Assembly: GCA_016285345.1 (NCBI GenBank)
Contig: JAEEQN010000002.1
Coordinates: 18,290-82,289, forward strand
Reading direction: 5' to 3'
Length of the DNA stretch: 64,000 nucleotides
From: Victivallales bacterium
Lineage (GTDB): Bacteria; Verrucomicrobiota; Lentisphaeria; Victivallales; UBA1829
Shown here: piece after piece, positions 37,696 to 53,874 of the stretch
Layout: each line of letters opens with the position of its first letter
Numbering within the stretch: position 1 is the first letter of the stretch
Position numbers and translations under genes: made by a program
The notes under the pieces: model-generated
What the model was told of the DNA's origin: nothing
The model's input: only the letters and a program-made list of their open reading frames with translations
Database searches by the model: none

Positions 37696-37751
37696 AAAAA
37701 GTGGTGCACCCGGCGGGGCTCGAACCCACCACCTACTGCTCCGGAGGCAGT
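37696..37751 (-). repeat. att direct repeat, left copy: 3'-terminal 50 nt of tRNA-Arg plus 6 nt of flank
   Basis: 56/56 nt identical to 51498-51553 (aaaaagtggtgcacccggcggggctcgaacccaccacctactgctccggaggcagt). Confidence 0.9.
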
Positions 37752-37813: not shown

Positions 37814-38022
37814 TTTGAAAAAGACCAAAATGTAAAGTATAGTATCCCTGTGATTCAAACCATATCAACCCTTCTGTTGTCCGGCATGGAGGTTGGGGGG
37901 TGCGAGTGATAGAGCATGAACGAGGGGCACCTAACTCCGTATTATTATAGCACCATTTTACGATTTTTCAAGCATCGAAATCATAAAGCCGGACAACGGG
38001 GATAAAAAACAAGGAGTCAATC

Positions 38023-39357
38023 ATGGTAAGACAACGGCGGCAGGGCGGAGCATGGTACTATCAGTTTATCCGAGGCGGCAAAGCATACCGTGGGTGTTGC
38101 GAGGGCGCGACAACTAAACGCGAAGCGGAAAGCTACGAAAGGGAAATCATCGCGACGGTGGAGAGCGCAGCCAAGCAGAAAACGGTAAAGGCGCTACTCG
38201 ACAATTTCAGAGAAGAATTGACCGGGGGCGAGAAGATCACCCTTAATGAAGCATTTGAACTGGCCGAACAGAAACCTCGTTCTCGGATTCCCGCCGAGAA
38301 GTATGCTGCAACGAAACGGGCCGTGTGGAACGATTTTCTGGCGTTCATGCGAGGCGAGCACCCGGATATCGAAAATCTGATCGACGTAACGGGAGCGCAT
38401 GCACAGGAGTACATCGCTCTCCTTCAGAAGTCAGGGCGGTATCAAAAGACCGTCAGCTATAGTCGTGGGGCGGGCCGGGGAGCAAGAACCATCATCACGC
38501 AGGCCGCTGATGGTGCATTGTCGGCGAGGACCGTCCGGCTTCATCAAACTGTATGTGCCGAGGTGTTCACGCTGCTTGCGAAGGACGCCGGATTGCAGGA
38601 AAATCCCTTTTCCGGGATCCGAATGATGAAGTCGGACACAGAGACGCGCGAAGCTTTCACTCCAGACGAACTCAAGACCATCTACGACAACCTCGACGAC
38701 TTCACTCGCCCGCTGTTCATGATGGCAGTATGGACGGGTTTTCGTGAGGGCGACATCTGCACGCTCAAATGGAGCGAAGTTGACCTCGTTCGTCGTTTGA
38801 TTACGCGGAGGACGCGCAAAACCAAAGTCGAGGTGCAGATCCCCATATCGAACCAGCTCTACGGGCTGTTGACCGCTACACCACGAACAGAATCCGAGTT
38901 TGTTTTTCCGAAACACGCCGAAATGTATCTGTCGAACCCAGACGGGGTCTCCTACAGAGTGAAGAGGTTTCTTGAGGGGCTGGGGATCGAGACAACTCGA
39001 ATTCCGGAAGGTCGGACGCGGGCAATCAGTGTGAAGGACCTCCACTCATGCCGCCACACATTCTGTTACTACGCCGGACTTGCGGGGATTCCTCTCGCGG
39101 TCGTTCAATCCATCGTCGGGCACATGAGCCCGGAGATGACGAAGCACTACTCGGCCCACGCTTCCATCGAGGACAAGCGGCGCGGCATGGAGCGTCTTTC
39201 ATTCTTCACGCAGGATGCGCTTCCAGAAGCGAAAGCAGACGAACCGGAACGGATAGAACTCCGGCAGCGGATCGAGACTCTGCCGATAGATACAGTCCGC
39301 GCTGTGCTCCAGTTTTTAAATGCACAGGGAATGACTGTTCAGATGGAGTTATTCTAA
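38023..39357 (+). CDS. Tyrosine recombinase / phage-type integrase
   Basis: The C-terminal catalytic region has WTGFREGDICTLKW (Arg I), HSCRHTF (HxxR), VGHMS and TKHY (Tyr nucleophile). The N-terminal SAM-like domain is typical of tRNA-targeting integrases. Confidence 0.9.
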   Translation: MVRQRRQGGAWYYQFIRGGKAYRGCCEGATTKREAESYEREIIATVESAAKQKTVKALLDNFREELTGGEKITLNEAFELAEQKPRSRIPAEKYAATKRAVWNDFLAFMRGEHPDIENLIDVTGAHAQEYIALLQKSGRYQKTVSYSRGAGRGARTIITQAADGALSARTVRLHQTVCAEVFTLLAKDAGLQENPFSGIRMMKSDTETREAFTPDELKTIYDNLDDFTRPLFMMAVWTGFREGDICTLKWSEVDLVRRLITRRTRKTKVEVQIPISNQLYGLLTATPRTESEFVFPKHAEMYLSNPDGVSYRVKRFLEGLGIETTRIPEGRTRAISVKDLHSCRHTFCYYAGLAGIPLAVVQSIVGHMSPEMTKHYSAHASIEDKRRGMERLSFFTQDALPEAKADEPERIELRQRIETLPIDTVRAVLQFLNAQGMTVQMELF

Positions 39358-39717: not shown

Positions 39718-40440
39718 TTATGCGATGACGGTCCACTCCATGCTGACGCCGTAGCCGAGGACGTTCCACTGGGTAGTGTCGCCGGAGGCGTAGTAGCCGA
39801 GCATGCCGGTGGAATACTGACGGACCAGGAGATCGTCCTGCTGATCGCCGTTGTAATCGCCCGCGCCGACGACGAACCAGTCCTCGGCATCCAGCTGATC
39901 GAGGCTAATGTACTTGCCTTCATCGGCAATACCGTCGGCAATCATGACCATGGAGCCGGATTCCTTGTGGAACAGGACCAGATCGTCTTTGCCATCACCC
40001 TTGAAGTCGCCGATGGCACGGACTTCCCAGCCAGACCAGTTGGCGGAGCCGAGCGAGGCCGAGGTGCCGTCGAGGTTGGCCGCGTAGAAGTACGTGCCAT
40101 TCGCGCCGGACATCACGATGGAGTCCTTGCCGTCGCCGTCGAAGTCACCGCAGCCGACCAGCGTCCAGTCGTCGCCGCCGAAGTTGCCGGAGAGAGAGAC
40201 CCAGTCCTCCTTGCCGTCTTTCCACGCACCGAGCGAGTAAAGCTCAGGCGCGTACCAGACGATGGAGTTCACGCCGGACGCATTGCCCGTGAGGTTGCCG
40301 ACCGCGTTCTTCCAGTCGATGTTTTTCTCGTTCGTGAGGTAACCGATGTTCACCCAGGTGGAGCCGTCCGGGAGGTCGTTCGAGTCGGCGTAATACCCGA
40401 TGTACGCGCCTTTGATCCCGGCATCGCTCGGACTCCGCTG
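39718..40440 (-). pseudogene. FG-GAP/VCBS-repeat protein fragment lacking an N-terminus
   Basis: GDFDGDGKDSIV, GDFKGDGKDDLVLF and GDYNGDQQDDLLV repeats. The frame stays open upstream of the listed GTG (40353) to a stop at 40441-40443, with no ATG or signal peptide. Confidence 0.55.
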
Positions 40441-40543
40441 TTAGGCTTTGGCGCTCCCGTTGCGGCTCCTGCGCCTCAGGGTGGCTTCAGCGGCGGAAAG
40501 GACATTGCTCTTTCATCCGTGCCGACTTAAAATTCCCTTTCCG

Positions 40544-41950: not shown

Positions 41951-43184
41951 TTGTCAAGGATCCCCGGATTCTTAAAAACTGAAATCCCGGAACAGAAAGA
42001 CAAACTTCCATTCCGGGAAAAAGGTTCAAAGGCACGAGGCAGCTGCCGGACTAAAGGTTTTCCGGCAGGGAAGAAATATGCGCTGGATGAAGATATGAAC
42101 AGGAACACTGCGGCCTCGAACGGGTGACATTATACGCATGAGGCAACGCCTGGACAAAAAAAGCCGGACATTTCACATGCGCGGTGATGAAGGTCCGACC
42201 AAGAACCTGCTACTAGGACACAGAGAAACGCCCAGCAAAACATGAAGATACAATCTTCCTGTGCTGGTTTTTCATCCCTAGTAGCAAAAGAGGTCTTTTT
42301 GAAACTTGGTCGGTTTTCATCACCTTTTGCTGAAAAACGATGTAATGAGCTCGGAAACCGTCCTCCACTGGGTGCGGAGCCGGAATCCGGGGATAATTTA
42401 CCCCCAAGTCGCGAAAAAGTCAAGCCCCAATCCGGTGCTTTTCTCATCTTTTTCCGGATTTTCCGTCACCAGGACCGTCACAATACATCCACATAGAACA
42501 CAAAGGAATCTACATTTTCATATATTGAGCTTATCCCGCCTCGGATATTCTTTGTGCGATACAGGGCCGTAACATCCAAATGATTGACAGGCTGTCCGTT
42601 ATCTTATCCTGCTTGCTCTTTGCTTATGTGTCGTCCTATTTAGAGATGCAATGTTTATAATTACGAGTTCTAAAACAATCACTCTATACTTTCATTGTAT
42701 TTCAATTAATGTGTTTCCATTTCAAACTGGATCATTCTCTACACGATTTGAACTGACTAAAACGAAATTTTTCCCTGTTGGAATACATCTGCAAAAATTC
42801 AACTTGAAGTTGAAAATCTCTCTTCACATACGAGAAATGGTGTCGACACAATCTGATTGTAATATCGATAGAGCGTAATAATCAACAAATATTATCAATA
42901 CTCTTTGCTGCACATTATATTGTATTTCTATCTCGCCGCAATATGCAACAGAGATAAAGGTCAGATTATGGAAAACACATCGTCAGACCTCTGACGATGT
43001 GATCTATTGTTGCACCGATGGAGCCAGAATGTTTCTCCCGTCAAACAAAAATGCGCCTCTTCACGTCGTTTTCAGCCATTTTTGCCTCGTTTAAGCTTAA
43101 TTTTTCTCATTTTTGTGAGAATAATATGATGACGGGATTGGATTCGCCAGTCCCGCAATAAAACAACCATAGGAGTACAAAACT

Positions 43185-43901
43185 ATGAAAAAAACTAATG
43201 TGCTTGTCCTCGCTGGGCTAGCACTCGCTGTCCTTTTGGCTGCAGCCGGTATGCGTACCAATAGGACAACCACAAAATTCGCCGGAAATGCCTCCAGCCT
43301 TACGGAACTGGATCAGCGTGCGCGTCCATTCTTCGAGGAAGCCGAGAAAAGCATTCCGAATGTCGTCTCGGAACTCAGCGGCACTCAGGAGTTCCTGAAC
43401 ATGTGTGGACTGGCCGTTGTCGACAAGATCAGCGGTTCAAACAAGATGGAGCAGAAACTCGCTTCCGTGATAGACGGTTCGATTCTGGCCCCGTGTCGAA
43501 AGGGAGCCTCCGTCTACGGGTGCAACATCAATCCGGTTTTGGCTCGTGGCTCTCTGTCGGACCTTCATCGGGACGCGATGACTTCCGTTCTCTATGCGTC
43601 AGGGGGATTGGCTCTGGAAGCGGCATTCCTGAAGACGACCTTGAAGTCGGTGCAATGCGTCATTGGTCCGATCGCGGAAAAAAACGCCGCGAAAATCGGA
43701 ACTGGAGCCACACTTGCCGCAGCTGACGGGCCGCTCCCCATTGGCGACACCATCGGTGTCATTCTGGCTGTCGGTGGTTCCGCGTGGTCAGTTCATGACC
43801 TGCTTGCTCTTCGTCGAGACCTGCCGGGCGCAATTTCTGCCGCACTCCGGCAGGCAATCCAGGAGTATTGGAAACAGTGCAGATTGGAGGCCGCTCAATG
43901 A
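43185..43901 (+). CDS. Hypothetical secreted/membrane protein
   Basis: 238 aa. AGGAG RBS. N-terminal signal anchor (VLVLAGLALAVLLAAAG). Gly/Ala-rich hydrophobic C-terminal segment. Confidence 0.6.
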   Translation: MKKTNVLVLAGLALAVLLAAAGMRTNRTTTKFAGNASSLTELDQRARPFFEEAEKSIPNVVSELSGTQEFLNMCGLAVVDKISGSNKMEQKLASVIDGSILAPCRKGASVYGCNINPVLARGSLSDLHRDAMTSVLYASGGLALEAAFLKTTLKSVQCVIGPIAEKNAAKIGTGATLAAADGPLPIGDTIGVILAVGGSAWSVHDLLALRRDLPGAISAALRQAIQEYWKQCRLEAAQ

Positions 43902-44239
43902 AGACTCTCCTGATTCTGTTACTGGCCCTGATGACGGGCTTCGTTTCCGCCATGCCTGCGCGCCGCCCCTATCGGAAGCCGCTGAAGCCCGCCCGTGTCG
44001 TGGAGACAAACCGACCTGTCTCATGGAAGGCCGTGGCCGCCGCTGGAGCCGCCGCCACAGGCGTGGTAGCGGCCTACAAAATCGGGTCCGGCGTTGAGGA
44101 CGGCTTGTCTACCACAGCCAAAGAAGCCCCCGTGGCGTTCCTCAGCTCGATCACGCTGTCATCGCTCTTCATCCCCCTGATCACTGTCGTGGGCATCCCT
44201 GTCGTCGGATATCTGATCTGGCAGAAACTCTCAAATTAA
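43898..44239 (+). CDS. Small membrane protein (signal peptide plus C-terminal TM)
   Basis: ATGA overlap with the upstream stop. MKTLLILLLALMTGFVSA signal sequence. C-terminal TM LFIPLITVVGIPVVGYLIW. Confidence 0.55.
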   Translation: MKTLLILLLALMTGFVSAMPARRPYRKPLKPARVVETNRPVSWKAVAAAGAAATGVVAAYKIGSGVEDGLSTTAKEAPVAFLSSITLSSLFIPLITVVGIPVVGYLIWQKLSN

Positions 44240-44261
44240 CCTCAAACCGAAAGGATACAAC

Positions 44262-45803
44262 ATGGAAATCTCTTTGAACAAAACCGAGCTGACCGGAGCG
44301 CTTCCTGCCTTGGGGAAACTTGTCTCCCGGACGTCCCTTATCAAGGCGTATCAGGCGATCCAAATCGAAGGTAGGGCGCACACGCTCTTCTTCCGTACCC
44401 GCAACGTCGTCGAAGGAATCGAATTCCGAATGGACGCCGATTTGGAAGATGACTTTCCTGCGGTTCTCGTAGAATTCGAGCAGTTCCGACTGGCCGTCCG
44501 CAACAGCAAGAAAAAAACGCTGGACCTGGAAGTCGAGAATGGCGAGGTCTTCATTGATGACGTCATGCTCGCACCTGTGAACGGACACTTTCCCGTGCCA
44601 GAGAACATCCCGGATCAGGATGCCACGGTTACGGAACTGCCCGCCGACACGCTGGCCGCGCTGTCACTGCTTGCCCCGCTCACAGACAAAGGGCAGGACA
44701 TTCGCAAGGTTCTCGGCGGAATCAACATCAGCCGGGACGGGCTCACCGCGACCAACGGCAAGGAGCTGTCGAATATCCCGCTCTCACTGGAGATGACCGG
44801 TAACGTCACGATTCCGTTCCCGCTCGCTCTGCTTGCCACAAAAGCATTCGGCGAATCCGGCAGGCTCACGACCTGGCAGAAGGACGAGGACACGCGCTTC
44901 GAGCTTTCGCTTGGTAACTGGACCTGGCGGGCGAAGGCGTACAAAGAGAACTACCCGAACTGGAAGCTCGTCGTGCCGGACCGGACAGAGGCCACGCACT
45001 ATGTGAGCTTCCAGGACGACCGCGCCGAACTGCTCCAGCGTTACCTAAAAAGCGTTCCTGACGACCCGCAGAACAACAACGGCATCAAGCTGAGCCGTCT
45101 CGAAGTCCCGGACAACCTTCATCTGGAAAGTTCGAACGGGATGCTGTTCAGCGTTCTCGCCGAATTCGACGATGCTTGGGGCGACCTGAGTTTCACCGTC
45201 AGGAAAGAATTCCTCCTGCATCTGCTGAACGCCGGACACCGGAAGATCGAGCTCAACGATGCCTACGGTCCGATTGTCGGAACTGGTGGCAATGGCGAAT
45301 ATATCGCCATGCCTATCATCACCAAAAGACCGCAAGCTCAAACCGAGCAGAAGCCGGAAGAGACCGCATCCAGCCAGACGGATACAAACGTTGCTGTTCA
45401 GGCTGAACAGACCGCACCTCAACCCATTCCCGAACAAACGGAATCCGTCACCGAGCAGATTCCGAATCACGAACAGGAAACATCCCCCACAAACAAAACC
45501 AATACCACACCCTCAACGAAGGAAAACACCACCATGATCGACACCAACACCATCACGCACGTCGTGTCTGCCCCCGTGCAGACGTCCGCCCAGAACAACA
45601 AACCCGAATCCAAGTTGAACCCGATGGACGAACTGATCATCAGCATCGAAGCGTTCAAGGCCAAGCTCAAGGCCATGGTCGATGAATCCACCGCCATGAG
45701 CCGTAAGGTCTGCGAGGTCGCCATCTCCCAGAGGCAGAAGGAACGCGAGTACGCGCGGACGAAGAAGACCATCGAAAAAATCCGGGTGGCCAGCGGCTTC
45801 TGA
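44262..45803 (+). CDS. Divergent DNA polymerase III beta sliding-clamp (DnaN)-like protein with a C-terminal extension of about 140 aa
   Basis: Collinear by eye with E. coli DnaN: ISLNKTELTGALPALGKLV / FTVEREHLLKPLQQVSG; HFPVPENIP / DFPNLDDW; LTATNGKEL / VATDGHRLA; ENYPNWKLVVP / GRFPDYRRVLP; GEYIAMPI / AAYVVMPM. This is followed by a Thr/Pro/Gln-rich linker and a coiled coil. Confidence 0.65.
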   Translation: MEISLNKTELTGALPALGKLVSRTSLIKAYQAIQIEGRAHTLFFRTRNVVEGIEFRMDADLEDDFPAVLVEFEQFRLAVRNSKKKTLDLEVENGEVFIDDVMLAPVNGHFPVPENIPDQDATVTELPADTLAALSLLAPLTDKGQDIRKVLGGINISRDGLTATNGKELSNIPLSLEMTGNVTIPFPLALLATKAFGESGRLTTWQKDEDTRFELSLGNWTWRAKAYKENYPNWKLVVPDRTEATHYVSFQDDRAELLQRYLKSVPDDPQNNNGIKLSRLEVPDNLHLESSNGMLFSVLAEFDDAWGDLSFTVRKEFLLHLLNAGHRKIELNDAYGPIVGTGGNGEYIAMPIITKRPQAQTEQKPEETASSQTDTNVAVQAEQTAPQPIPEQTESVTEQIPNHEQETSPTNKTNTTPSTKENTTMIDTNTITHVVSAPVQTSAQNNKPESKLNPMDELIISIEAFKAKLKAMVDESTAMSRKVCEVAISQRQKEREYARTKKTIEKIRVASGF

Positions 45804-45883
45804 ACCGTCATCTCCCGACATCACCCCAACACCGCCCTCGGCAGCTCACTGTTGCTGGGGGCAATCTTTGAAAGGAAACCATC

Positions 45884-46360
45884 ATGCTCAAACTCAATGC
45901 ATCCTACAGCAAGAAAATCCCCGCACAATCTGAGTATTCTTCTCAGTCCTACCACGCCTCAGTCGAGGTCGAGCTTCCTGATGGACTCACGACCGAACAA
46001 TTGAATGCGAAGATCCACGAGACATTCGCGCTCGTCCGCGACAGCGTGGAAACGGAACTGCACGGAAACACGGTTCAGCAGTCCGCTCCGATCCCCCAGA
46101 CCTCGAACGCGCAGCCCCAACCGGGTCTGTACGAAAACCAGCCGCAAAACGCGTCGAAGCCCATCTACGGCAAGAAGAACGGCACGACCTCGGACGCTCC
46201 CGCTTCTCCCAAGCAGGTCAAGTACCTCCTTGATCTCGCCCGCCAGTTCGGAATCAATCCGGAGCAAATCAAGGCCAAGTTCAACGTGCCAGCGCTCGAA
46301 AGTCTAACGAAGACGCAGTGCAGCCGTGCCATTGATGAGCTCAACGGAAAGGCGGCCTGA
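45884..46360 (+). CDS. Hypothetical island protein
   Basis: 158-aa ORF with an RBS. Gln/Pro-rich middle section. The C-terminal ASPKQVKYLLDLARQFGINPEQI...LTKTQCSRAIDEL looks like a small helical DNA/protein-binding module. No assignment made. Confidence 0.55.
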   Translation: MLKLNASYSKKIPAQSEYSSQSYHASVEVELPDGLTTEQLNAKIHETFALVRDSVETELHGNTVQQSAPIPQTSNAQPQPGLYENQPQNASKPIYGKKNGTTSDAPASPKQVKYLLDLARQFGINPEQIKAKFNVPALESLTKTQCSRAIDELNGKAA

Positions 46361-46361
46361 T

Positions 46362-47153
46362 ATGGAACGCACAATTGAAACTGTCCGCGAGGCACCGCAC
46401 TGGTCGTACAGCTCGTTGCAGCTTTTTTTGAACTGCCCCTTGCGTTACTACTTCCGGTACGTTGAAAAAGCTGAGGTGGAAAGGACAAGTGTAAGCCTGC
46501 CGTTCGGGCGGGCTTTCCACGCCGTCTTGAGCCTTCGCGCGGAGAAAGGCTCGGTTTACAGCGCCGAGGACGCGAAAGAAGACTTTGCCGTGTACTTCCG
46601 AGGCGAAACCGAGGTCAGCGAGAACCTGACGTACAAGCAGGATGAGGACTATTGGTTCTGGGAACAGCGCGGATGCGACATGCTGGAGGTCGCTTTTGCA
46701 GAATGGCCGGACGATTATTCGGTCAAATCTGTGGCGGAGGCGTTCAGCGTGGACGTTCCAGGACTGAGCAAGCCTCTCATCGGCGAGTTCGATCTCGTCG
46801 TTAATGACGGCGGGGACGAAACGATCTGCGATTTTAAAACGGCGTCGACGAAGTGGCCGACCGGGAAAGCTGACAGAGATCTGCAGGCGACTGCCTTCTC
46901 ATTCGCATATCAGAAGCGCCACGGCAAAATCCCGATCTTCCGCTTCGACGTCTTCACGAAGGCGAAGAATCCGGTTCACCAGCAACTCTACACGCTCAGG
47001 ACGAACGATGATTTCGACCGTTTCGTCTACCTCGCCAACAAAATTGAGGCGGCAGTGAACACCGGCATCTTCCTCCCGGTAGAATCGTGCATGAACTGTG
47101 CTGAATGCGCCTACGGGGACCGCTGCAAAGCGGTCCACAGAAAGGCGGCGTAA
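46362..47153 (+). CDS. PD-(D/E)XK nuclease of the Cas4/RecB(AddB) type with a Fe-S cysteine cluster
   Basis: N-terminal FLNCPLRYYF, FDLVV...ICDFKT (D..(D/E)xK core) and C-terminal CMNCAECAYGDRC. Start taken at ATG 46362, 1 nt after the upstream stop. Confidence 0.7.
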   Translation: MERTIETVREAPHWSYSSLQLFLNCPLRYYFRYVEKAEVERTSVSLPFGRAFHAVLSLRAEKGSVYSAEDAKEDFAVYFRGETEVSENLTYKQDEDYWFWEQRGCDMLEVAFAEWPDDYSVKSVAEAFSVDVPGLSKPLIGEFDLVVNDGGDETICDFKTASTKWPTGKADRDLQATAFSFAYQKRHGKIPIFRFDVFTKAKNPVHQQLYTLRTNDDFDRFVYLANKIEAAVNTGIFLPVESCMNCAECAYGDRCKAVHRKAA

Positions 47154-47154
47154 C

Positions 47155-47883
47155 ATGGGACTGATTATGCAGGAAGGCAAATACGTCAGCCGTGATGAAG
47201 TCGCGTGTATCGACACCCCAAGTTCGACTGAAACATGGAGACCTGTGCCGCACATTGATGTCATCGAGGCCGTAACCGAAGTTGTCAAGGCTCACCGCTG
47301 GGATATTGCGGACGAACGGTTCGGCCTCGCCAGCGAAGGACAGAAGATGTTCGGCGTCATGGAAATCTCCCGTTCATCTTCGCCTCAATGGCATCGCTGT
47401 ATCGGCATCCGCAACAGCCACGACAAAACCCTTGCCGTTGGACTGTCTGCCGGAATCGTCGTTCTTGTCTGCTCCAACCTCGCTTTCGGCGGAACCACCG
47501 TCATCAAGCGCAAGCACACCAGCCGGTTTGAACTGACCGATCTGATCGACCGTGCCGTGGCATCGCTGGAGGACGACTTCCTGATGACCGAAACCGTGTG
47601 CGAGGACCTGAAGGACATCCACCTCAAAAACGATGACGAAGCCCGGAGTAGCATTGTGCGTGCTGCCGAGCTCGGCGTCATCAATTCCTGTGACATTCTT
47701 CCGGTCTACCGTGAATTCAAGTCCCCGTCACATGCCGAGTTCAAGGAGCCAACACGATGGAGCCTGTTGAATGCATTTACGGAAACCGTGAAGAAGTACA
47801 CGCCTCAGCGTGTGGACCACAGCTATCTCGCCCTGAACCGGGCGTTCGGGCTGGACGGTCGCCCTGCCGCCATCTTCACCTGA
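47155..47883 (+). CDS. DUF932-family protein (phage/plasmid-associated)
   Basis: IGIRNSHDKTLAVGLSAGIVVLVCSNLAF and the overall length resemble DUF932/TIGR03299 proteins. Start at ATG 47155, just after the upstream TAA. Confidence 0.6.
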   Translation: MGLIMQEGKYVSRDEVACIDTPSSTETWRPVPHIDVIEAVTEVVKAHRWDIADERFGLASEGQKMFGVMEISRSSSPQWHRCIGIRNSHDKTLAVGLSAGIVVLVCSNLAFGGTTVIKRKHTSRFELTDLIDRAVASLEDDFLMTETVCEDLKDIHLKNDDEARSSIVRAAELGVINSCDILPVYREFKSPSHAEFKEPTRWSLLNAFTETVKKYTPQRVDHSYLALNRAFGLDGRPAAIFT

Positions 47884-47910
47884 CGGCGAGAACGAGCAAC
47901 CCGGCATGGT

Positions 47911-47951
47911 CGGAGGTCGAAGGAGTGCAAGCCTTCCCTCCGGTTTTTTTT
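47911..47951 (+). terminator. Strong rho-independent terminator ending the clamp/nuclease/DUF932 operon
   Basis: CGGAGG+GAAGG (47911-47923) pair with CCTTC+CCTCCG (47932-47942), followed by eight T. Confidence 0.75.
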
Positions 47952-48014
47952 ATATTGAGGTTGCGCGAGCTGTCAAATCGACAAAAAAAGTTTCAGAAAA
48001 AATCGTTGTTTCGC

Positions 48015-48043
48015 TTGATTTCTCCTGTCGACGATGTTAAATT
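48015..48043 (+). promoter_or_regulatory. Candidate sigma70 promoter with an extended -10
   Basis: TTGATT (48015-48020), 17 nt spacer, TGtTAAATT (48035-48043). It lies between a terminator and a 0.7 kb non-coding stretch. Confidence 0.5.
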
Positions 48044-48049
48044 ATTTCT

Positions 48050-48760
48050 CGGCTGAAACAAGAGCGGCATCCCCGTTACCACCAACATCGGGGCGAAGCG
48101 CTCCAGACAGCCACCACACATCGTGATCTAACGGCGGACACCAGACTGAACCAAGGGTCGGACGCACCGAACCTCCAGCAGTGATCGGGCGGGAACATCC
48201 TCTCAGCCGGGCAAACAGAACGCTTGGATCGCGGTCACAGACTACAGCACATAGGTGAACGTTCAGCGCCTGCACTCGCAGCCCAAGAACGTCAGCTGTT
48301 CCCCAGAAGGCATCGGACCAAACCTATACGGTCGGCGATGCGAACAGCGCATAGGCGATGTCAAAACCGGCCAAAGCGGTCAAGACATCGGGCTGTCCCC
48401 AGATAGCATCGGGCCACCTATTCGGCCGAAATGCTATACCTCCCCAACACGACGTACCAATGACCGCCACTGCGGCGAGTCAGCGGGCGCGTACTGTTGT
48501 CCACGGCAGCAAACGACCCCAAAGGCCGGATGCCAACCGTCCAGAGCGAAGCATTGGACCACCAATGGTCTCAGATGCTTGGGAACAGCAGGGCCCGGAA
48601 ACATCCCGGAGCGAACTCAGGCCAGAAGCCTGAGCAAGGTTCGGAGTGCAACCGGGGCAACAACGGGCACAGGCCGAAAGGTCTGGGCAAAGCACTCGGT
48701 GAAGACCTCGCAGAAGCGGAATCGGCATCGGGAACAAACCTATGAAACAGGAGTCTTACA
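48050..48760 (+). ncRNA. Candidate large structured non-coding RNA / long 5' leader of the Xis-like gene
   Basis: About 710 nt with no plausible ORF. The + strand is T-poor. Local hairpins are dense: CATTGG-ACCA-CCAATG at 48552-48567, CTCAGGC-CAGAA-GCCTGAG at 48616-48634, AGGCC-GAAA-GGTCT at 48671-48684. A duplicated hairpin module lies at 48310-48341 and 48405-48435. Confidence 0.3.
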
Positions 48761-49105
48761 ATGAGCAACATGCTCGAACATACGCCCCAAAACGGGGAGA
48801 CAACGGACGGCCTCAAATCGGTCGTTCCGCAGAACGTACTGGATATCATCCGGTGCGCCATCTCGCCGTACCCCGTCCCTTGGAGCAGAATCCGTAATGC
48901 TATCTTATCAGAAGAGGACGGCAATTCAAAGTCTATTCTGCCAGATGATCTCATGGACACCGCAGAGGCCATTAAGGCTCTGAAAATCTCGCGTGTCACA
49001 CTTCATCGTCGTGTGCGGGAAGGAACCATCCCCGTACACAAATTAGGACGCAGAAATCTCTATTCTCTGAAGGAGATAAGGGAAGTCCTGCAGGTGGAGA
49101 ACTAA
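48761..49105 (+). CDS. Excisionase/AlpA-family helix-turn-helix DNA-binding protein
   Basis: LMDTAEAIKALKISRVTLHRRVREGTIPVHKLGRRNLYSLKEIREVL matches the excisionase-family HTH pattern. AGGAG RBS at 48750-48754. Confidence 0.7.
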   Translation: MSNMLEHTPQNGETTDGLKSVVPQNVLDIIRCAISPYPVPWSRIRNAILSEEDGNSKSILPDDLMDTAEAIKALKISRVTLHRRVREGTIPVHKLGRRNLYSLKEIREVLQVEN

Positions 49106-49407
49106 CGACCATCATAGATCATCCCACAAGACCACGACAGGTCCCGCGATCTCGTGACAAATCGCTGGTAGGCAGCAAACCATGGTAGGCTCCTTCACTC
49201 CTGGCGAGCTGTCTCCGGTGAGCGTCCGGCTCTGCTAACTGAAAGCCCATTGCCGCTACATCGGCTCACACAGGCGAACAGCCCAGCGAACCCGACGATG
49301 CGTCACAACAAGGTCTCGACTTATGATCTACACGGCAGCCACCCCAACTGTCTCTGTGAGAATCGTTCCTGTCTGGCAAAGGACAACGAACACCGTCTGA
49401 AAATAAC

Positions 49408-51029
49408 ATGCAAAACAAAACAACCAATATCCATGCGCCGAGGGACAACTCCCACGGTGCGAACACCCCTGGCTCAGACCAGTCTTCGGACACCGAGAAT
49501 CGTACCAAGCTCTCGCGAGAAGTCCAGACCGACCGGATCAAGCAATTTCCCGAAGAATCGGGAATTGATACGGAACGGTGTAACAATCGCGTTGAGAATG
49601 ACACGACCGCTTCGGCGTACGACTGGCTGCCCAAGCCGATCAAATACAACTCCAAAACGCGCGAGGACCAGACCGACAGGTGTATTCTCCGCAATGGGAA
49701 ACAGGGAAGTGCGCCTGAAACACTGCCGAAGAAAGAGAGCGTGAAAACGGCAGCCAAGCACAACCCGCAAATCGGACAGCAGAATACCAGACAGACTGAC
49801 TCCTTCTGGACCGGTGGTTCTGAACGCTCCGGCAGTTCATCAAAGCAGAAACACAAACAGCGGTACTATGATCCGCTAATCGGAAATCATGTCATCCCGA
49901 TCATCTGGAATCATGACCTCCTGGAACGAATCGCGGACAGGGACAATCTCCTACAAGCAATCGCCTTCTTAGCCCGTCACAAGGAGAAAACTCCTGGTCC
50001 GGACCACAAGAGCGTGGAGGAGACCTGCATCATGCTTTCCGATCCGGAGAACCTGGAACGCCTTCGGCAACAGCTTCTTCAGGAAACATACCGACCCGGT
50101 AATGTCCAATCAACACAAATCCCCAAATCCAACGGAAAGACGCGGCCCTTAAAGATCGCGACTGTGATGGATCGCTGCGTACAGCGTGCAATCCTACAGC
50201 AGGTAATCACGAACCTACCGAAGAATCCGTGGTGCCCCTACTCCTTTGCATACCACCACGGGCAAAACACGACCGACGCAATCGAAGAAGTCAACAGGAT
50301 CCGGGAAGAGGGATACAAGTACGCTATCGAACTGGACCTCGAGTCCTTCTTCGACAATGTACGGCATACCAGACTCCTGAAGAAACTCCGTAGACATATC
50401 GCCGATAAGAGGGTAGTCCGAATGATCTCTCACATCATATCGGCCCTTATCATCAATAATCACGGGGAGCTGACGAAAAACCGCAAAGGCACACCGCAAG
50501 GCTTCGCGATTTCCTCATGGCTCGCAGCAGACCTATACCTGGATGAAATGGATCAGGAAATGACACGGCGCAACCTGCGCTTCGTCCGTTTCGCTGACGA
50601 CATTACTATATTCACCCGCTCGAAGAAGTCGGCCAAGCGTGTCAAGGCCAGAATCATCGAGTTCACTGAAAACGTAATGGAATGTCCGGTCAACAAGAAG
50701 AAAACCAGAATCGTCACCATTGAGAACGTCTCCCCTCCCTCTTGGGAGTCGAACTCAGGGATGGCCACTGGAGAATCCTTCGCGAAAAGGTCCGCAACCA
50801 CTGCGGCGAATACATGAAGGACATAGCCAAGTATAAGAAAACGAAGAATGACTACTACATCCGCAAGGCAGCCCAGAGCATGCAGGGATTCATCGGCGGT
50901 TACACCAGGATTCCTGACATCTGCCTGAGACAAATTCGGGCACTGAGATGCTGGTGCATGAACAGGTGGTGGGCCACGGGTGAACGCAAGCTGTTCTTCG
51001 CCCAGAAACGCTGGATGGTGCCAGACTAA
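49408..51029 (+). pseudogene. Group-II-intron-type reverse transcriptase (RT plus thumb/X, no endonuclease domain), interrupted by a frameshift near 50735
   Basis: RT0 LLERIADRDNLLQA; RT2 IPKSNGKTRPLKIATVMDRCVQRA; RT4 LDLESFFDNVRH; RT5 GTPQGFAISSWLAADLYL; FADD; KTRIV. The thumb continues in the -1 frame (50742-51029: LGVELRDGHWRI...MQGFIGGY). The first roughly 165 codons are low-complexity and probably not genuine protein. Confidence 0.75.
49457..51029 (+). mobile_element. Group II intron-like retroelement remnant: 5' GUGCG, domain-I-like RNA and an intron-encoded RT; no domain V/VI recognised
   Basis: GTGCG at 49457-49461. GATACGGAAC (49567), GCGTTGAG (49589) and GTACGACTG (49617) occur in the same order and roughly the same spacing as GAUACGGGAAC/GCGAUGAG/GUACGACUG in Ll.LtrB domain I, as I recall that sequence. 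Confidence 0.4.
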
Positions 51030-51091
51030 CCACGGGACGCAAACGCTACTCTGCAAAGATGAACTGAATTACCGCTCTATTAACTGAGCCT

Positions 51092-51135
51092 GAGCAGCGC
51101 TTCAGGTGTGAATGACCTGGAGTGCTGCTCTTTTT
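51092..51135 (+). terminator. Strong rho-independent terminator after the RT
   Basis: GAGCAGCGCTTCAGG (51092-51106) pairs over 15 bp (two G-U) with CCTGGAGTGCTGCTC (51116-51130), followed by TTTTT. Confidence 0.75.
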
Positions 51136-51219
51136 GATTTCGCTGACGGCACTCGTCTTTGGCTTCCGAAGAACAATTAACCTCAACCCAAGCAACCGAA
51201 ATGCCGTTTTTAACCTCAG

Positions 51220-51243
51220 ATCGTGGCAAAATCGTGGAAAAGG
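51220..51243 (-). repeat. Inverted copies of the arm-type motif (ATCGTGGCAAAATCGTGGAAAAGG)
   Basis: The reverse complement reads CCTTTTCCACGATTTTGCCACGAT, related to the direct copies at 51405-51444 and 37792-37813. Confidence 0.5.
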
Positions 51244-51404
51244 TCCCCATTTCCACAATTGTCGTGGCGAATGATCGCTGCTGTTTTCAGCACGATGGGA
51301 CGTACCAGACAGGAACCGGAGGCATATCGCGGAAGGCTCGGTTTTCCACGGACATACATGAATGCTTGAGCAGGAAGGGCGAAAAATCTGAGCTCAAAAG
51401 CCTG

Positions 51405-51444
51405 CCACGATTTTTCCACGATTTTTCCACGATTTGTGTCACGA
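51405..51444 (+). repeat. Three tandem arm-type motifs (CCACGATTTTT x2, CCACGATTTGTGTCACGA) next to the right att
   Basis: ccacgatttttccacgatttttccacgatttgtgtcacga lies 54 nt from the direct repeat. Confidence 0.55.
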
Positions 51445-51497
51445 AACATAAAAAAACACCATGTTTCACGATGTATGAAAAATGGTGATTTAAGCTC

Positions 51498-51553
51498 AAA
51501 AAGTGGTGCACCCGGCGGGGCTCGAACCCACCACCTACTGCTCCGGAGGCAGT
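51498..51553 (-). repeat. att direct repeat, right copy (inside the intact tRNA-Arg)
   Basis: Identical to 37696-37751. Confidence 0.9.
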
Positions 51554-51580
51554 CGCTCTATCCAAATGAGCTACGGGTGC
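51504..51580 (-). tRNA. tRNA-Arg (anticodon CCG)
   Basis: The reverse complement folds as a 77-nt cloverleaf: GCACCCG/TA/GCTC-ATTTGGATA-GAGC/G/ACTGC-CTCCGGA-GCAGT/AGGTG/GTGGG-TTCGAGC-CCCGC/CGGGTGC/A/CCA. Anticodon loop C-U-CCG-G-A. CCA is encoded. Confidence 0.9.
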
Positions 51581-51675
51581 ACTGCATAACGCAGTCAAAT
51601 AATATAGCGCAAAGTCAAAAAAAAGCAAATCCTCGTCTCGAAAAAGCAGGAAAAACGTTGAGGAAGGGGGGCGGA

Positions 51676-53874
51676 TCAGAAGATGTTCGGGGCTGTGACG
51701 GTTGCAGTGACGTCGATCTTTTCGATGTAGTACCAGTCCTGGCTGGGGAGGTAGTTCACGCAATAGATGATACGGCGGCCGTTCTCGATGCGCGAGATCG
51801 TGCCGTATTTGGTCTCGGTGAACTGTTCGAAGAGGCCGGCGTCGTCGAAGCTGATGGTCAGGGAGTCTTCCTTGTTCGTTTCCGTGGCTCCGGCGAACCG
51901 GGCTCCGGTGGAGACCAGGATCAGCCCTTTGTTGTCCAGCAGGGTCTTTTCCAGGACGTTGTTCCCGACGTTGCCGTTCGTCTTCAGGTCGTGAATGATC
52001 GTGTTCAGGTGCAGGTCGAATCCGGCGACGCCGAGGAAATTGCCGGCGGTATCCAGCATGGGGACGTTGCAGGAGAGCAGATAGCCCGCGGCGGCGGTAT
52101 TGCCGGGGTAGGGTTTGCTCCAGGCGAATTCGCCGCTGCTGGACTGGGCGGTCTTGTACCAGTGGCGGCTGCGCGGATCGTAGCTTGATGCATAGACGCC
52201 GCTGCCGGGGTACACGACGTACTGGCCGTCGGGGAATCCGAAGAGCAGCAGATGAAGCGGGATGCCGTTGAGGCGGAGATATTCGTTCTTTTCGGCGTCG
52301 GAGGCGTCCGCGAGCTTTTCCGGCAGGCGTTCGCTGAAGACGCCCATGATCGTATCCTTCAGATGCGCCAGGATGTGCAGGCGGCGTTTCTCGACGGCGG
52401 TCAGTTCCTCTCCGTGGATGGTTTTGTGGGCGAAGTGCGAGAAATCGATCTTGCGGTGGTATACGGAGGAATACAGGAGCGAAGCGGGGGGATTGTTCGT
52501 GTCGCGGAGCGCGGAAACGGACATCATGCAGTCGGGGTTCGTTTCTCCGTCGTCCGGGTCGGTCTCGTAGAGGAAGACGAACTCCGAGGTGATGGACGAG
52601 AGGAACTGGGCGTTGCGCGCGATGTTCGTTTCGATGTAGTCGGCGCACGCGGTGGACTGGACCTGCGCGGTGGCGAGCTGCCGCGCGTATGCGTGAACCG
52701 CGTTAATCTGGCTGACGCGGCGGTAGGCTGTCACACCGATCGTGAGGAGCAGCATGAGGATGCAGACGACGGCGAACGCCAGCGAGGCGCGTTTGTGGTG
52801 GACGGCGAACGCGGAGATGCGCCCGAAAAGGTGATATGGGTTCGCGGAGGTCTCCTCGCCGCCCATGTAGCGGCGGATGTCGGCGCCCAGGTCGCGGACG
52901 TTCTGGTAGCGTTCGTCGCGGTTGTACGCGGTCGCCTTCGCGATGATCGCCTTCAGGTCGGGGTCGATCCTGAACCCGTATTTGTGGCGCGTTTCGGCGA
53001 TGCGGCCTTCGCGGATCATGGAGACGACCTCGGCGCTGGTGCGCGCCATGTAGGCTTCGCGGAGCGTGACGACCTCGAACAGAATGAGCCCGAGCGCGTA
53101 GATGTCCGCGCGCTGGTCGGTGTGTTCTCCCTGGATGGCTTCGGGCGACAGGAAACGCGGCGTGCCGGAGATCGTGCTTGGTTTTTCCCATGTGGCGGGG
53201 TCGTAACCGGGTTCTTCGATCTGGCGGGCGATGCCCCAGTCCATGATGTAGGTCTCGCGGAACTCGCCGATGAGGATGTTTTCCGGCTTGAGGTCGCAAT
53301 GCATGATGTTGCGGCTGTGGGCGTAGTCGAGGGCGTCGCATACGCGGAGCATGACCTCGAGGCGGAACATCAGGGACTTGCGTTCGTCGAACTGTCCGAT
53401 GCCGGCCTTGCGGTATTCGTAGTCGAGCTGGTCCAGATAGTCTTTCAGCGTCTTGCCGTCGACGAGCTTCATCACGAGGTGGAGCCCGTCCTTGTCGTCC
53501 GAGTTCAGCGAATAGATCGGGATGATCGCGGGGTGGCTGAGCTGGGCAGTGACGCGCGCCTCCTGGATGAACTGGCCGCGCGTGAACTGGTCCTCGGGCT
53601 GCGATTTGAGCGTCTTGATCGCCACGGGACGGCGGAGGTTCAGGTCGAGCCCCTCGCGGATGATGCCCTGTCCGCCTTCCGCGAAGACTTTGCCCTGCCG
53701 GTATTCCGCGTCGATGGGCTCCAGCTTGACGTCCAGCCGGTCGTCGAACCGGACGGTGGAGTGGTCCACGTGCGTGAACGTGACGGTGGTGTCCTGTTCG
53801 CGTCCGAGGTTCTTCAGCCCGACCCTGATCGAGGTTACGGTATGGACTTTGCCTGATGTCGCGCCCCGGCTCAT
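51676..53874 (-). CDS. Ser/Thr protein kinase (Hanks type) with a TM segment and a C-terminal extracytoplasmic Cache domain
   Basis: VAIKTLK (catalytic Lys), HCDLKPENILI, MDWGIA, GTPRFLSPEA. One TM (LAFAVVCILMLLLTIGVTAY). YDPRSRHWYKTA is the Cache hallmark. Confidence 0.85.
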   Translation of the reverse strand: MSRGATSGKVHTVTSIRVGLKNLGREQDTTVTFTHVDHSTVRFDDRLDVKLEPIDAEYRQGKVFAEGGQGIIREGLDLNLRRPVAIKTLKSQPEDQFTRGQFIQEARVTAQLSHPAIIPIYSLNSDDKDGLHLVMKLVDGKTLKDYLDQLDYEYRKAGIGQFDERKSLMFRLEVMLRVCDALDYAHSRNIMHCDLKPENILIGEFRETYIMDWGIARQIEEPGYDPATWEKPSTISGTPRFLSPEAIQGEHTDQRADIYALGLILFEVVTLREAYMARTSAEVVSMIREGRIAETRHKYGFRIDPDLKAIIAKATAYNRDERYQNVRDLGADIRRYMGGEETSANPYHLFGRISAFAVHHKRASLAFAVVCILMLLLTIGVTAYRRVSQINAVHAYARQLATAQVQSTACADYIETNIARNAQFLSSITSEFVFLYETDPDDGETNPDCMMSVSALRDTNNPPASLLYSSVYHRKIDFSHFAHKTIHGEELTAVEKRRLHILAHLKDTIMGVFSERLPEKLADASDAEKNEYLRLNGIPLHLLLFGFPDGQYVVYPGSGVYASSYDPRSRHWYKTAQSSSGEFAWSKPYPGNTAAAGYLLSCNVPMLDTAGNFLGVAGFDLHLNTIIHDLKTNGNVGNNVLEKTLLDNKGLILVSTGARFAGATETNKEDSLTISFDDAGLFEQFTETKYGTISRIENGRRIIYCVNYLPSQDWYYIEKIDVTATVTAPNIF

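What the first reader, a model, noticed from the sequence alone, without database searches (positions are those of the whole stretch)
49457..51029. Group II intron-like element with domain-I-like RNA and its RT, but no recognisable domain V/VI and two single-base frame problems
GTGCG at 49457 is followed at LtrB-like distances by GATACGGAAC, GCGTTGAG and GTACGACTG. These resemble conserved domain I strings of Ll.LtrB as I remember that sequence.

The RT has all group II motifs (RT0-7, FADD, thumb). There are two frame problems:
- The thumb lies in the -1 frame after a C-tract at 50732-50735. Adding one base gives ...TIENVSPSLLGVELRDGHWRI....
- A canonical start (ATG 49913, which would give M-T-LLERIADRDNLLQA) is out of frame by one base at a CC run. 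The only in-frame ATG (49408) lies upstream of the putative 5' splice site.

Downstream of the stop I find no 34-nt domain V (AGC triad, 2-nt bulge, GNRA loop) and no domain VI, only a 15-bp terminator hairpin.

So this is either a 3'-truncated decaying intron or an intron-derived RNA/RT retained without the ribozyme core. Both indels fall in C homopolymers, so sequencing error must also be excluded.
Basis: partly seen in the sequence, partly recalled or inferred. Interest (0 to 1): 0.6.

Follow-up and report, generated by a model that had tools for sequence, protein, structure and literature searches.

The report
Broken stand-alone intron-type reverse transcriptase
This is not a decaying self-splicing intron but a stand-alone reverse transcriptase gene descended from intron enzymes, carried on a small mobile island next to a tRNA gene in a gut-type Lentisphaerota bacterium and broken here by a 5-base duplication. 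I found no description of its family, which has a long disordered N-terminal tail and its own conserved RNA hairpins after the gene.

Summary
Rfam finds no group II domain here or in 14 related loci, while 8 of 8 true intron controls score 82-136 bits. The "domain I" strings lie inside the coding sequence and are already changed in an 87%-identical relative.

The gene starts at ATG 49408. It encodes about 150 disordered residues followed by a group II-type RT with a thumb. Intact relatives are single ORFs of 480-760 aa. They form a distinct family seen only in Lentisphaerota and Victivallaceae from gut and rumen samples.

The only defect is an exact 5-bp tandem duplication (CTCCC|CTCCC, 50730-50739), not a homopolymer slip. 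The "ATG 49913 problem" is not real.

The gene sits at the right end of a 13.9-kb island integrated in tRNA-Arg (att repeats at 37696 and 51498). In relatives it lies next to the integrase, and sister islands lack it, so it is accessory cargo.

Verdict: a free-standing group II intron-like RT, recently inactivated. It is a new variant of a known kind, and its function is inferred only.

The parts
49408..50817 (+). RT ORF as it stands in the window (469 aa): N-terminal extension plus fingers/palm with FADD. It is out of frame after the duplication and ends in a 27-aa nonsense tail.
49408..49848 (+). N-terminal extension, about 147 aa, predicted disordered, T-poor.
   Evidence: AF2 pLDDT is below 50 for residues 1-147 of P0001. 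The frame is kept open in all family members. Codon-position identity is 0.47/0.51/0.38 among distant members, and nonsyn:syn is about 3:1 among close ones.
49867..49899 (+). Family-specific conserved motif Y-D-P-L-I-G-N-H-V-I-P, just before RT0. It is structured in the model.
   Evidence: Nearly invariant columns Y153 D154 P155 G158 H160 P163 in A3. pLDDT rises to 74-95 here.
49942..50729 (+). RT0-RT7 (fingers and palm), group II type. FADD is at about 50591-50602.
   Evidence: TIGR04416 positions 2-256; GsI-IIC RT alignment
50730..50739 (+). Exact tandem duplication CTCCC|CTCCC that causes the frameshift. Relatives have one copy.
50740..51029 (+). Thumb (X-like) domain and W-rich C-terminus, now in the -1 frame (listed as ORF 50742-51029).
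   Evidence: Foldseek aligns 365-368 columns to GsI-IIC RT, thumb included. TIGR04416 is covered to position 328-351 in intact relatives.
51068..51139 (+). Family-specific conserved 3' RNA element: stem GCUC...GAGC, invariant GAGCC-Y junction, 16-bp hairpin at 51092-51130, then a T run.
   Evidence: Model R1, 61.3 bits, E 1.5e-14. Specificity control. Covariation. Terminator scan.
48761..49105 (+). HTH_17 / excisionase-like gene directly upstream. It is also upstream of the RT in L001, L002 and L074.
51217..51437 (.). Arm-type repeats of the island between the RT terminator and attR: CCACGATTTTT x3 at 51405-51437, with inverted copies at 51217-51241.
51498..51553 (.). attR: a 56-nt direct repeat overlapping the 3' part of tRNA-Arg(CCG), which lies at 51504-51580 on the minus strand.
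37696..37751 (.). attL: the identical 56-nt copy. The island spans 37696-51553.
38023..39357 (+). Tyrosine integrase of the island. It is adjacent to the RT in the circular form and in most related loci.

Best explanation
[quoted passage not shown] The protein starts at ATG 49408. It has a disordered N-terminal extension of about 150 aa, a conserved YDPLxGxHxIP motif, RT0-7 with an intact F/YADD active site, and a group II-type thumb. It has no DNA-binding or endonuclease domain.

It belongs to a distinct family of about 75 clusters at 90% identity, seen only in gut and rumen Lentisphaerota and Victivallaceae. Members travel as accessory cargo on tRNA-integrating islands, next to the integrase and excisionase. 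Here the island spans 37696-51553 in tRNA-Arg.

Every member carries a conserved two-hairpin RNA element directly after the stop codon. Its second hairpin plus U run is the transcription terminator.

The window copy was recently inactivated by a 5-bp tandem duplication that separates the palm from the thumb.

What is inferred: the intact protein is an active polymerase kept for a benefit to the host or the island. The most likely role is a defence-type stand-alone RT that works on RNA and recognises the 3' stem-loops of its own transcript. The disordered tail would serve nucleic-acid binding or priming.
For: No intron RNA:
- Rfam finds no group II family in the window at gathering threshold.
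- It finds none at E<=10 on 48900-51700 or on 49380-49960 alone.
- It finds none in 14 family loci.
- All 8 true group II controls hit group-II-D1D4-3 at 82-136 bits, and Intron_gpII where the contig reaches that far.

Group II-type RT:
- TIGR04416 scores 222 bits on the window ORF and 219-242 bits on intact relatives, covering profile positions up to 351 of 353. This is below the 300-bit cut-off.
- The best PDB sequence match is GsI-IIC RT at 5e-49, against 1.5e-9 for G2L4.
- Residues 150-537 of the AF2 model have pLDDT mostly above 90. Foldseek gives GsI-IIC RT at E 2.5e-25, TM 0.74 and 30% identity.
- There is no Pfam GIIM hit in the family, whereas true intron RTs in the same search have one.

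Translated extension and true start:
- P0001 (91% identity) and P0002 (87%) are continuous 537-aa ORFs covering 100% of the query.
- About 40 loci keep the frame open for 85-370 codons upstream of RT0 and have no conserved internal start.
- The third codon position is the least conserved.

Frameshift: a CTCCC duplication is present only in the window. The window lineage shows 7 synonymous and 6 non-synonymous changes in the RT, so there is no long decay.

Active enzyme under selection: D309, A395, D396, D397, Q363, G364 and K431 are invariant in 59 sequences. Codon-position identity in the RT is 0.68/0.76/0.39.

Island and cargo status:
- A 56-nt att repeat bounds the island, with arm repeats and an integrase.
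- The order int-RT-orf238-orf513-orf158-PDDEXK-DUF932 recurs in many loci.
- The island's DUF932 protein has 932 homologue clusters at E<=1e-30, against about 75 RT clusters.
- Three sister islands lack the RT, and one carries a restriction-modification cassette instead.

3' element: R1 hits sit at -21 to +38 nt from the stop in 35 distinct rows. Only 3 weak hits appear in 1.09 Mb of controls. 95.7% of cells are paired and 18 of 20 pairs show compensatory changes.
Against: - Nothing here tests function. No known defence effector or PADLOC system surrounds the gene, and the family is absent from IMG/VR.
- The tight link to the integrase and excisionase, even when the rest of the cargo differs (L074), could mean a role in the island's own life cycle rather than defence.
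- The 3' element could be no more than a well-conserved terminator: 30 of 35 rows have a T-rich tail.
- The covariation counts come from a model-fitted alignment, which leans towards the structure.
- The N-terminal extension evolves almost neutrally among close relatives, so its sequence may matter little.
- Without reads, the duplication could still be an assembly error.
Confidence: 0.8

Rival explanations
1. A mobile group II intron in decay: domain I is retained upstream of the RT, DV/DVI are lost, and the ORF is accumulating frameshifts.
For: GTGCG and three strings that resemble Ll.LtrB domain I (from memory) occur at similar spacing. The RT is closest to intron RTs. The 150-nt windows spanning 49350-49749 fold better than shuffles, with z from -1.7 to -3.65 in five of six windows and -0.21 in one.
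Against: No group II covariance model matches at any threshold, while 8 of 8 controls match. The strings sit in a frame-conserved coding region and are all altered in the 87%-identical L002. Resemblance to the remembered LtrB sequence is within shuffle range. The whole family, down to 40% identity, has the same intron-less layout and is single-copy beside an integrase. That is not what a recent decay would give.
Confidence: 0.03
2. The gene is intact in the organism, and the 5-bp duplication is an assembly or sequencing artefact.
For: The rest of the gene shows no decay: 7 synonymous and 6 non-synonymous lineage-specific changes, and no stops. Both close relatives are intact.
Against: An exact 5-bp tandem duplication is a typical replication-slippage mutation and is not a homopolymer miscall (established knowledge of sequencing error profiles). 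Other decayed copies exist in the family: L085, L093 and L104.
Confidence: 0.15
3. The RT is part of the island's own integration, replication or repair machinery rather than a defence gene. It could be a G2L4-like repair or gap-filling polymerase, or a maker of a cDNA used by the integrase module.
For: It lies next to the integrase in eight loci, with int-to-RT gaps of about 70-280 nt in the four I measured, and downstream of an HTH_17 gene in L001, L002 and L074, even when the cargo differs. The islands carry a clamp-like protein and a PD-(D/E)XK exonuclease. G2L4 and group II RTs have double-strand-break repair activity (bioRxiv 10.1101/2022.03.14.484287, abstract).
Against: Sister islands with the same core module have no RT within 10 kb. 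L003/L004 keep an intact RT and 3' element beside tRNA-Arg, with no integrase called within 10 kb on either side. The family has F/YADD, not the YIDD of G2L4, and G2L4 is a distant match.
Confidence: 0.2
4. The conserved 3' element is a relic or derivative of intron domains (the hairpin starts GAGC and often has a GNRA loop, like DV), so the family is an intron with a strongly reduced ribozyme.
For: The element sits where DV lies in introns. The hairpin begins G-AGC, and about 15 of 35 rows have GNRA-type loops.
Against: The hairpin has 16 continuous pairs, no 2-nt bulge and no DVI, and is followed directly by a U run. Rfam Intron_gpII gives no hit at E<=5-10. There is no 5' ribozyme part.
Confidence: 0.05

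Closest known systems
Bacterial group II intron RT/maturases, best match GsI-IIC RT (PDB 6AR1/7K9Y; NCBIfam TIGR04416)
   Same: RT0-RT7 with an N-terminal RT0 region, a Y/FADD active site and an alpha-helical thumb. 30% identity and TM 0.74 over about 365 residues. The whole TIGR04416 profile is covered.
   Different: No intron RNA. Scores fall below the TIGR04416 cut-off, and there is no Pfam GIIM hit. An extra 85-370-aa disordered N-terminus and a YDPLxGxHxIP motif are present. There is no D/En domain. The gene is single-copy on an integrative island.
G2L (group II intron-like) free-standing RTs of Simon & Zimmerly 2008 (PMC2602772), including G2L4 (PDB 9D4S) and G2L5
   Same: RTs that look like intron RTs but lack any associated ribozyme. 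G2L5, from Planctomycetes (the same PVC superphylum), also has a long N-terminal extension.
   Different: G2L4 has YIDD and is only a distant match (1.5e-9 by sequence, 18% identity by structure). G2L5 has DD changed to DN and a conserved maturase motif, whereas this family keeps DD and has no GIIM hit. I found no G2L class described with a conserved 3' RNA element or a link to an integrase.
CRISPR-associated group II-like RTs (RT-Cas1; PADLOC Cas1_IIIb)
   Same: Second-best PADLOC hit (1.5e-41). Like this family they often have FADD and no maturase domain.
   Different: There is no Cas1 fusion and no cas gene or CRISPR array in the window.
Defence RTs of the UG/Abi lineage that work with an ncRNA (DRT9, DRT10/UG17, DRT2)
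   Same: A single RT gene plus a dedicated structured RNA. PADLOC hits to UG17 (4e-37) and Drt9 (1e-35). Two of three tested DRT10 systems have an associated tyrosine recombinase, which is not needed for defence (PMC12632851).
   Different: The matches are much weaker than to group II RTs. In DRT9 and DRT10 the ncRNA is upstream and priming residues are C-terminal. Here the RNA element is 3' of the gene and the extra protein region is N-terminal. There is no SLATT or other effector neighbour.

Membership tests
Mobile group II intron | Ribozyme domains I-IV flanking or preceding the ORF | tested here: not met
   No group-II-D1D4 model hit in the window at gathering threshold or at E<=10, nor in 14 family loci. 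8 of 8 true-intron controls hit at 82-136 bits.
Mobile group II intron | Domain V/VI downstream of the ORF | tested here: not met
   No Intron_gpII (RF00029) hit. Four of the eight controls hit it. The downstream hairpin has 16 uninterrupted pairs followed by a U run.
Mobile group II intron | Conserved GUGYG 5' end and multiple copies with identical ends in varied sites | tested here: not met
   GTGCG at 49457 lies inside the ORF and reads GCGCG in L002. The family is single-copy per locus and always sits on the same kind of island.
Mobile group II intron | RT/maturase protein (TIGR04416 equivalog; Pfam GIIM) | tested here: inconclusive
   The full profile is covered but scores are 219-242 bits against a cut-off of 300. 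There is no GIIM hit, but the thumb fold matches GsI-IIC RT.
G2L (free-standing group II intron-like RT) | RT closest to intron RTs by sequence and structure | tested here: met
G2L (free-standing group II intron-like RT) | No associated intron RNA structure | tested here: met
G2L4 | YIDD active-site motif and close sequence relationship | tested here: not met
   FADD or YADD in all members. G2L4 scores E 1.5e-9, against 5e-49 for GsI-IIC RT.
CRISPR-associated RT | Fusion to or adjacency with cas1, and a CRISPR array | tested here: not met
   No CRISPR repeat family and no cas gene near the RT here or in related loci.
UG/Abi defence RTs (DRT9, DRT10/UG17, DRT2, DRT3) | Best match to the class model; cognate partner (SLATT, second RT, upstream ncRNA) | tested here: not met
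   PADLOC and NCBIfam DRT models score 50-126 bits, against 200-230 bits for group II-type models, and all are below their cut-offs. No partner gene is conserved. The defence phenotype cannot be tested here.
Retron | msr/msd ncRNA next to the RT, and a retron-type RT | tested here: not met
   Retron RT models score 60-80 bits, below their cut-offs. No retron RNA family is found by Rfam.

The most novel reading that the evidence does not exclude
The family is an undescribed class of domesticated intron-type RT that works as an RT-RNA pair. In this reading the conserved stem-loops directly after the stop codon are the enzyme's own recognition or initiation site, so it copies or is regulated through the 3' end of its own transcript. 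The long disordered N-terminus supplies nucleic-acid binding or a priming residue. The whole unit serves tRNA-integrating islands of Lentisphaerota as a defence or maintenance module, in some islands together with a catalytically dead RT paralogue.
Probability: 0.25. Interest if true: 0.65.

Novelty: new variant of a known kind. Interest (0 to 1): 0.4.

Why it matters
Free-standing relatives of intron RTs are few. Each one studied so far, such as RT-Cas1 and G2L4, turned out to do something unexpected. This family adds a clade from the little-studied PVC phylum Lentisphaerota with three features I found in no G2L class described in the papers I read:
- a long disordered N-terminal extension that is kept in frame but evolves almost neutrally;
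- a dedicated, covarying RNA element fused to the end of the gene;
- a steady position beside the integrase of small tRNA-integrating islands, sometimes paired with a dead RT paralogue.

It gives a defined protein-RNA pair to test for cDNA synthesis.

For annotation, it shows that intron-like strings plus an RT are not enough to call an intron. It also shows that gene callers should keep the long N-terminus.

The window copy itself is a recent pseudogene and of little interest on its own.

Tried and rejected
- Group II RNA. I ran Rfam at gathering threshold and at permissive thresholds on the window, on the 581-nt stretch alone and on 14 family loci. All were negative, with positive controls.
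I treat this as a lead, not a test.
- The N-terminal region as a non-coding RNA. RNA folding gives z from -1.7 to -3.65 in five of the six 150-nt windows spanning 49350-49749. But the frame is conserved in every member, the third codon position is the least conserved, and the predicted helices are not kept in L001 or L002. I rejected it as the main explanation. A secondary RNA role is not excluded.
- Programmed frameshift. Rejected, because relatives encode one continuous ORF and lack the duplicated pentamer.
- A terminator/antiterminator switch, with upstream CUGCUC competing with the 3' arm of the hairpin. The upstream segment does not covary with the hairpin's 5' arm in L090, L099 and similar rows, so I dropped it.
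- A conserved ncRNA upstream of the start. The only conservation is about 70 nt shared by the three close loci, plus a hairpin-like UCUAUAC...GUAGA in one subfamily. I did not pursue it.
- Viral origin. No family member and no DUF932 relative is found in IMG/VR.
- PADLOC on the island's other proteins gave no defence hits.
Full report
**1. What is in the sequence**

One frame is open from ATG 49408 to 50817, giving 469 aa. A second ORF in the -1 frame (50742-51029, 95 aa) continues the protein. Pfam finds RVT_1 only, at 1e-34, and nothing for the short ORF. NCBIfam's group II RT/maturase model TIGR04416 gives 222 bits, below its 300-bit cut-off. PADLOC's best hits are a generic 'RT' model, then RT-Cas1, Drt9, UG21 and UG17. 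The only Rfam hit in the whole window is tRNA-Arg(CCG) at 51504-51580 on the minus strand.

**2. There is no intron RNA**

Rfam found no group II family in any of these scans:
- at gathering threshold on the whole window;
- at E<=10 on 48900-51700;
- at E<=10 on 49380-49960 alone, where the filters are laxest.

As a control I scanned eight true group II introns, whose RTs are about 34% identical to this one and which were fetched by the same searches. All eight hit group-II-D1D4-3 at 82-136 bits. Four also hit D1D4-1, and four hit Intron_gpII where the contig extended that far. None of ten family loci in the same call hit anything but a tRNA. Fourteen family loci scanned at E<=5 also gave no group II hit.

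In L002, whose protein is 87% identical, GTGCG reads GCGCG, GATACGGAAC reads GAAACGGCAAG, GCGTTGAG reads GCGATGTA and GTACGACTG reads GTCCGAACTG.

**3. The true gene**

A search with the repaired protein found P0001 (91% identity) and P0002 (87%). Both are 537 aa and cover 100% of the query. It also found about 75 clusters that have RVT_1 but no maturase (GIIM) domain, are mostly 370-730 aa long, and cover 54-100% of the query, most of them including the N-terminal region. True intron RTs with GIIM begin only at E of about 1e-45.

In the DNA alignment of the window with the two contigs (L001, L002), the ATG at 49408 is the shared start. The only length difference inside the gene is AACGT[CTCCC]CTCCCTCTTGG. 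The window has an exact tandem duplication of CTCCC (50730-50739), and both relatives have one copy and read TIENVSLLGVELRDGHWRI. So the defect is +5 bp, not a lost base in a C run.

The out-of-frame ATG at 49913 is irrelevant. L001 has the same bases and is intact, and L002 has AAG there.

About 40 family loci from genomes and metagenomes keep the frame open for 85-370 codons upstream of RT0. They all have F/YADD, and none has a conserved Met near RT0. A few other copies are truncated (L085, L093, L104).

**4. The N-terminal extension**

AlphaFold2 on P0001 with a 59-sequence family alignment gives pLDDT below 50 for residues 1-147 and mostly above 90 for 150-537.

The extension is T-poor, with AT skew up to 0.53. 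That explains why several frames on both strands are open here.

| Comparison | Extension | RT domain |
|---|---|---|
| Codon-position identity, distant members (pos 1/2/3) | 0.47/0.51/0.38 | 0.68/0.76/0.39 |
| Lineage-specific non-synonymous:synonymous changes, three close loci | 6:1, 10:3, 27:8 | 6:7, 8:4, 20:38 |

The distant members give a weak coding signature. The close loci give a ratio near the neutral expectation for the extension.

Conserved pieces are one to three copies of R-E-V-Q-A-E-R-R-N-x-R-D-G-Q, a GGSDCSASS patch, and a nearly invariant Y-D-P-L-x-G-x-H-x-I-P just before RT0.

RNA folding of five of the six 150-nt windows spanning 49350-49749 is better than shuffles, with z from -1.7 to -3.65 (one window gives -0.21). 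The RT domain gives z near 0. I found no conservation of the predicted helices, so I treat this as unexplained rather than as evidence for a ribozyme.

**5. What kind of RT**

By sequence, the best solved relative is GsI-IIC RT (5e-49, residues 170-435), followed by other intron RTs. G2L4 scores only 1.5e-9.

By structure, GsI-IIC RT gives E 2.5e-25, TM 0.74 and 30% identity over 365-368 aligned columns, thumb included. G2L4, DGR, DRT9, DRT2 and retron RTs follow at a distance.

Intact relatives cover TIGR04416 up to position 351 of 353, at 219-242 bits.

Catalytic and dNTP-binding residues are invariant in 59 sequences.

This matches the definition of group II intron-like (G2L) RTs: intron-type proteins with no ribozyme (PMC2602772). 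It is not G2L4, which has YIDD. It is not G2L5, which has DN for DD together with a long N-terminal extension. It is not CRISPR-associated.

**6. Genomic setting**

A 56-nt direct repeat that includes the 3' 50 nt of tRNA-Arg occurs at 37696-37751 and at 51498-51553.

Between the two repeats lie:
- a tyrosine integrase (38023-39357);
- a GDPD-domain protein;
- orf238;
- a clamp-like orf513 (phrog_947);
- orf158;
- a PD-(D/E)XK exonuclease;
- DUF932;
- a T-poor stretch;
- an HTH_17/excisionase-like gene (48761-49105);
- the RT.

Arm-type repeats (CCACGATTTTT x3 at 51405-51437, inverted copies at 51217-51241, TTTCACGATTTTTC at 37789 and 37956) flank the att sites.

In related loci the commonest order is int-RT-orf238-orf513-orf158-PDDEXK-DUF932. 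The int-to-RT gaps are about 70-280 nt in the four loci I measured. Other loci have HTH_17-RT at the island end next to tRNA-Thr, tRNA-Arg or tRNA-Met.

Between the window and L007, PDDEXK and DUF932 are 76-81% identical. The RT is only 48% identical and the integrase 24%.

The DUF932 protein of the island has 932 homologue clusters at E<=1e-30, against about 75 for the RT. Three sister islands with the same core module have no RT within 10 kb, and one carries a FokI-like/methylase/Vsr cassette. The RT is therefore accessory cargo in the variable, integrase-proximal part of the islands.

Named hits are Lentisphaeria and Victivallaceae MAGs from rumen, yak rumen and horse faeces. None is in IMG/VR.

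**7. A conserved RNA element after the stop codon**

Comparing the 250 nt downstream of the stop across loci showed a shared block. Its parts, in order, are:
- (A/Y)CUGCUC;
- a small variable hairpin, which is lost in the window, L001 and L002;
- an invariant GAGCC-Y junction;
- a hairpin of about 16 bp that begins G(A/G)GC;
- a U run.

A covariance model built from 15 sequences finds the element full-length, on the sense strand, and starting -21 to +38 nt from the stop (measured in 22 loci). It gives 35 distinct rows, 20 of them not used for the model. In the window it is at 51068-51139 (61 bits). The same model gives only three weak hits (E>=0.03) in 1.09 Mb of control loci.

On the model-fitted alignment, 95.7% of cells are standard pairs, against 30-53% when the partners are slid. 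18 of 20 pairs show compensatory changes, against 4-7 when slid. G-U pairs are common and A-C pairs rare, which fits the sense strand.

Mean pairwise identity compares as follows:

| Region | Mean pairwise identity |
|---|---|
| 3' element | 0.63 |
| Last 300 nt of the coding sequence | 0.59 |
| 80 nt beyond the element | 0.47 |

Thirty of 35 rows have a T-rich tail, and about 15 have GNRA-type loops.

It is one, but it is also part of a family-specific structure. Whether the RT binds it has not been tested.

**8. How it most likely works**

Shown:
- an intron-type RT with an intact active site under purifying selection;
- no ribozyme;
- a translated disordered N-terminus;
- a gene-linked structured 3' RNA;
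- accessory status on tRNA-integrating islands;
- a frameshift in this copy that removes the thumb.

Inferred: the intact protein is an active polymerase retained for a benefit to host or island. My rough estimates for its role are:
- about 45% for a defence-type role. The gene is variable cargo at the integrase end where a sister island holds a restriction-modification system. It evolves faster than the island core. Some loci have a dead-RT partner. L003 keeps an intact RT with no integrase called within 10 kb on either side.
- about 20% for a role in the island's own integration, repair or replication;
- the remainder unknown.

In either case the 3' stem-loops are the best candidate for the RNA it recognises.

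The window copy is probably non-functional, and recently so, unless the duplication is an assembly error.

**9. Verdict**

- The intron reading is rejected.
- The 'intron-derived RT without ribozyme' reading is right for the protein.
- This is a new variant of a known kind (G2L RTs).
- Interest is moderate for the family and low for this broken copy.

Noticed in passing
window 51068-51139; also L003:11660-11739, L072:1647-1726, L009:11404-11483 and about 30 other loci: A family-specific, covarying two-hairpin RNA element with an invariant GAGCC-Y junction lies directly after the RT stop codon. It is absent from 1.09 Mb of control loci.
   Followed up: yes
L074:7282-8619 (likewise L067, L068, L070, L071): A second RT paralogue lies directly upstream of the family RT. 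It is 445 aa, has YNNE in place of YADD and so is presumably catalytically dead, has no disordered N-terminus, and is preceded by an HTH_17 gene. The window island lacks it.
   Followed up: partly
L082:2630-2710 and 2747-2824: Two tandem copies of the 3' RNA element follow one RT gene.
   Followed up: no
window 48250-48760: A T-poor stretch between DUF932 and the HTH_17 gene has no convincing ORF. It shows strong predicted RNA structure (z from -2.8 to -4.3) and a 21-nt direct repeat at 48300 and 48396. It has patchy similarity to L001, where one 33-35-nt piece matches three places. It could be an origin, an ncRNA or a disordered-protein gene.
   Followed up: partly
window 37696-51553: A 13.9-kb integrated island in tRNA-Arg(CCG) is bounded by a perfect 56-nt direct repeat. 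It has arm-type repeats (CCACGATTTTT) at both ends and no conjugation or capsid genes.
   Followed up: yes
L166, L167/L168, L169/L170: Sister islands have the same clamp-like/PDDEXK/DUF932 module but no RT. They carry a Rep-like YagK_YfjJ_C protein, an AAA_25 protein and, in L169, a FokI-like/methylase/Vsr cassette. The DUF932 family is very abundant, with 932 clusters.
   Followed up: partly
L003:11659-12191 (and L004): An intact RT with its 3' element and the same attR arm sequence sits beside tRNA-Arg(CCG). No integrase is called within 10 kb on either side, and there is no second att copy in the 21.7-kb locus. It may be a remnant island that kept only the RT.
   Followed up: partly
window 49487-49690; P0004-P0008 N-termini: The disordered extension holds one to three copies of a motif R-E-V-Q-A-E-R-R-N-x-R-D-G-Q (two degenerate copies in the window). 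Its non-synonymous to synonymous ratio among close relatives is near neutral, although the frame is always kept.
   Followed up: partly
L009, L066-L070, about 20-45 nt upstream of the RT start codon: One subfamily has a conserved AUUCUAUAC-N5-GUAGAAAA sequence, a possible small hairpin, just before the start codon. Its position recalls the DIVa site where intron RTs bind their own mRNA.
   Followed up: no
window 49400-49410 compared with L001:1670-1686: Compared with both close relatives, the window lacks 6 nt (AAGAGC-like) immediately upstream of the ATG, in the A-rich stretch that probably holds the ribosome-binding site.
   Followed up: no
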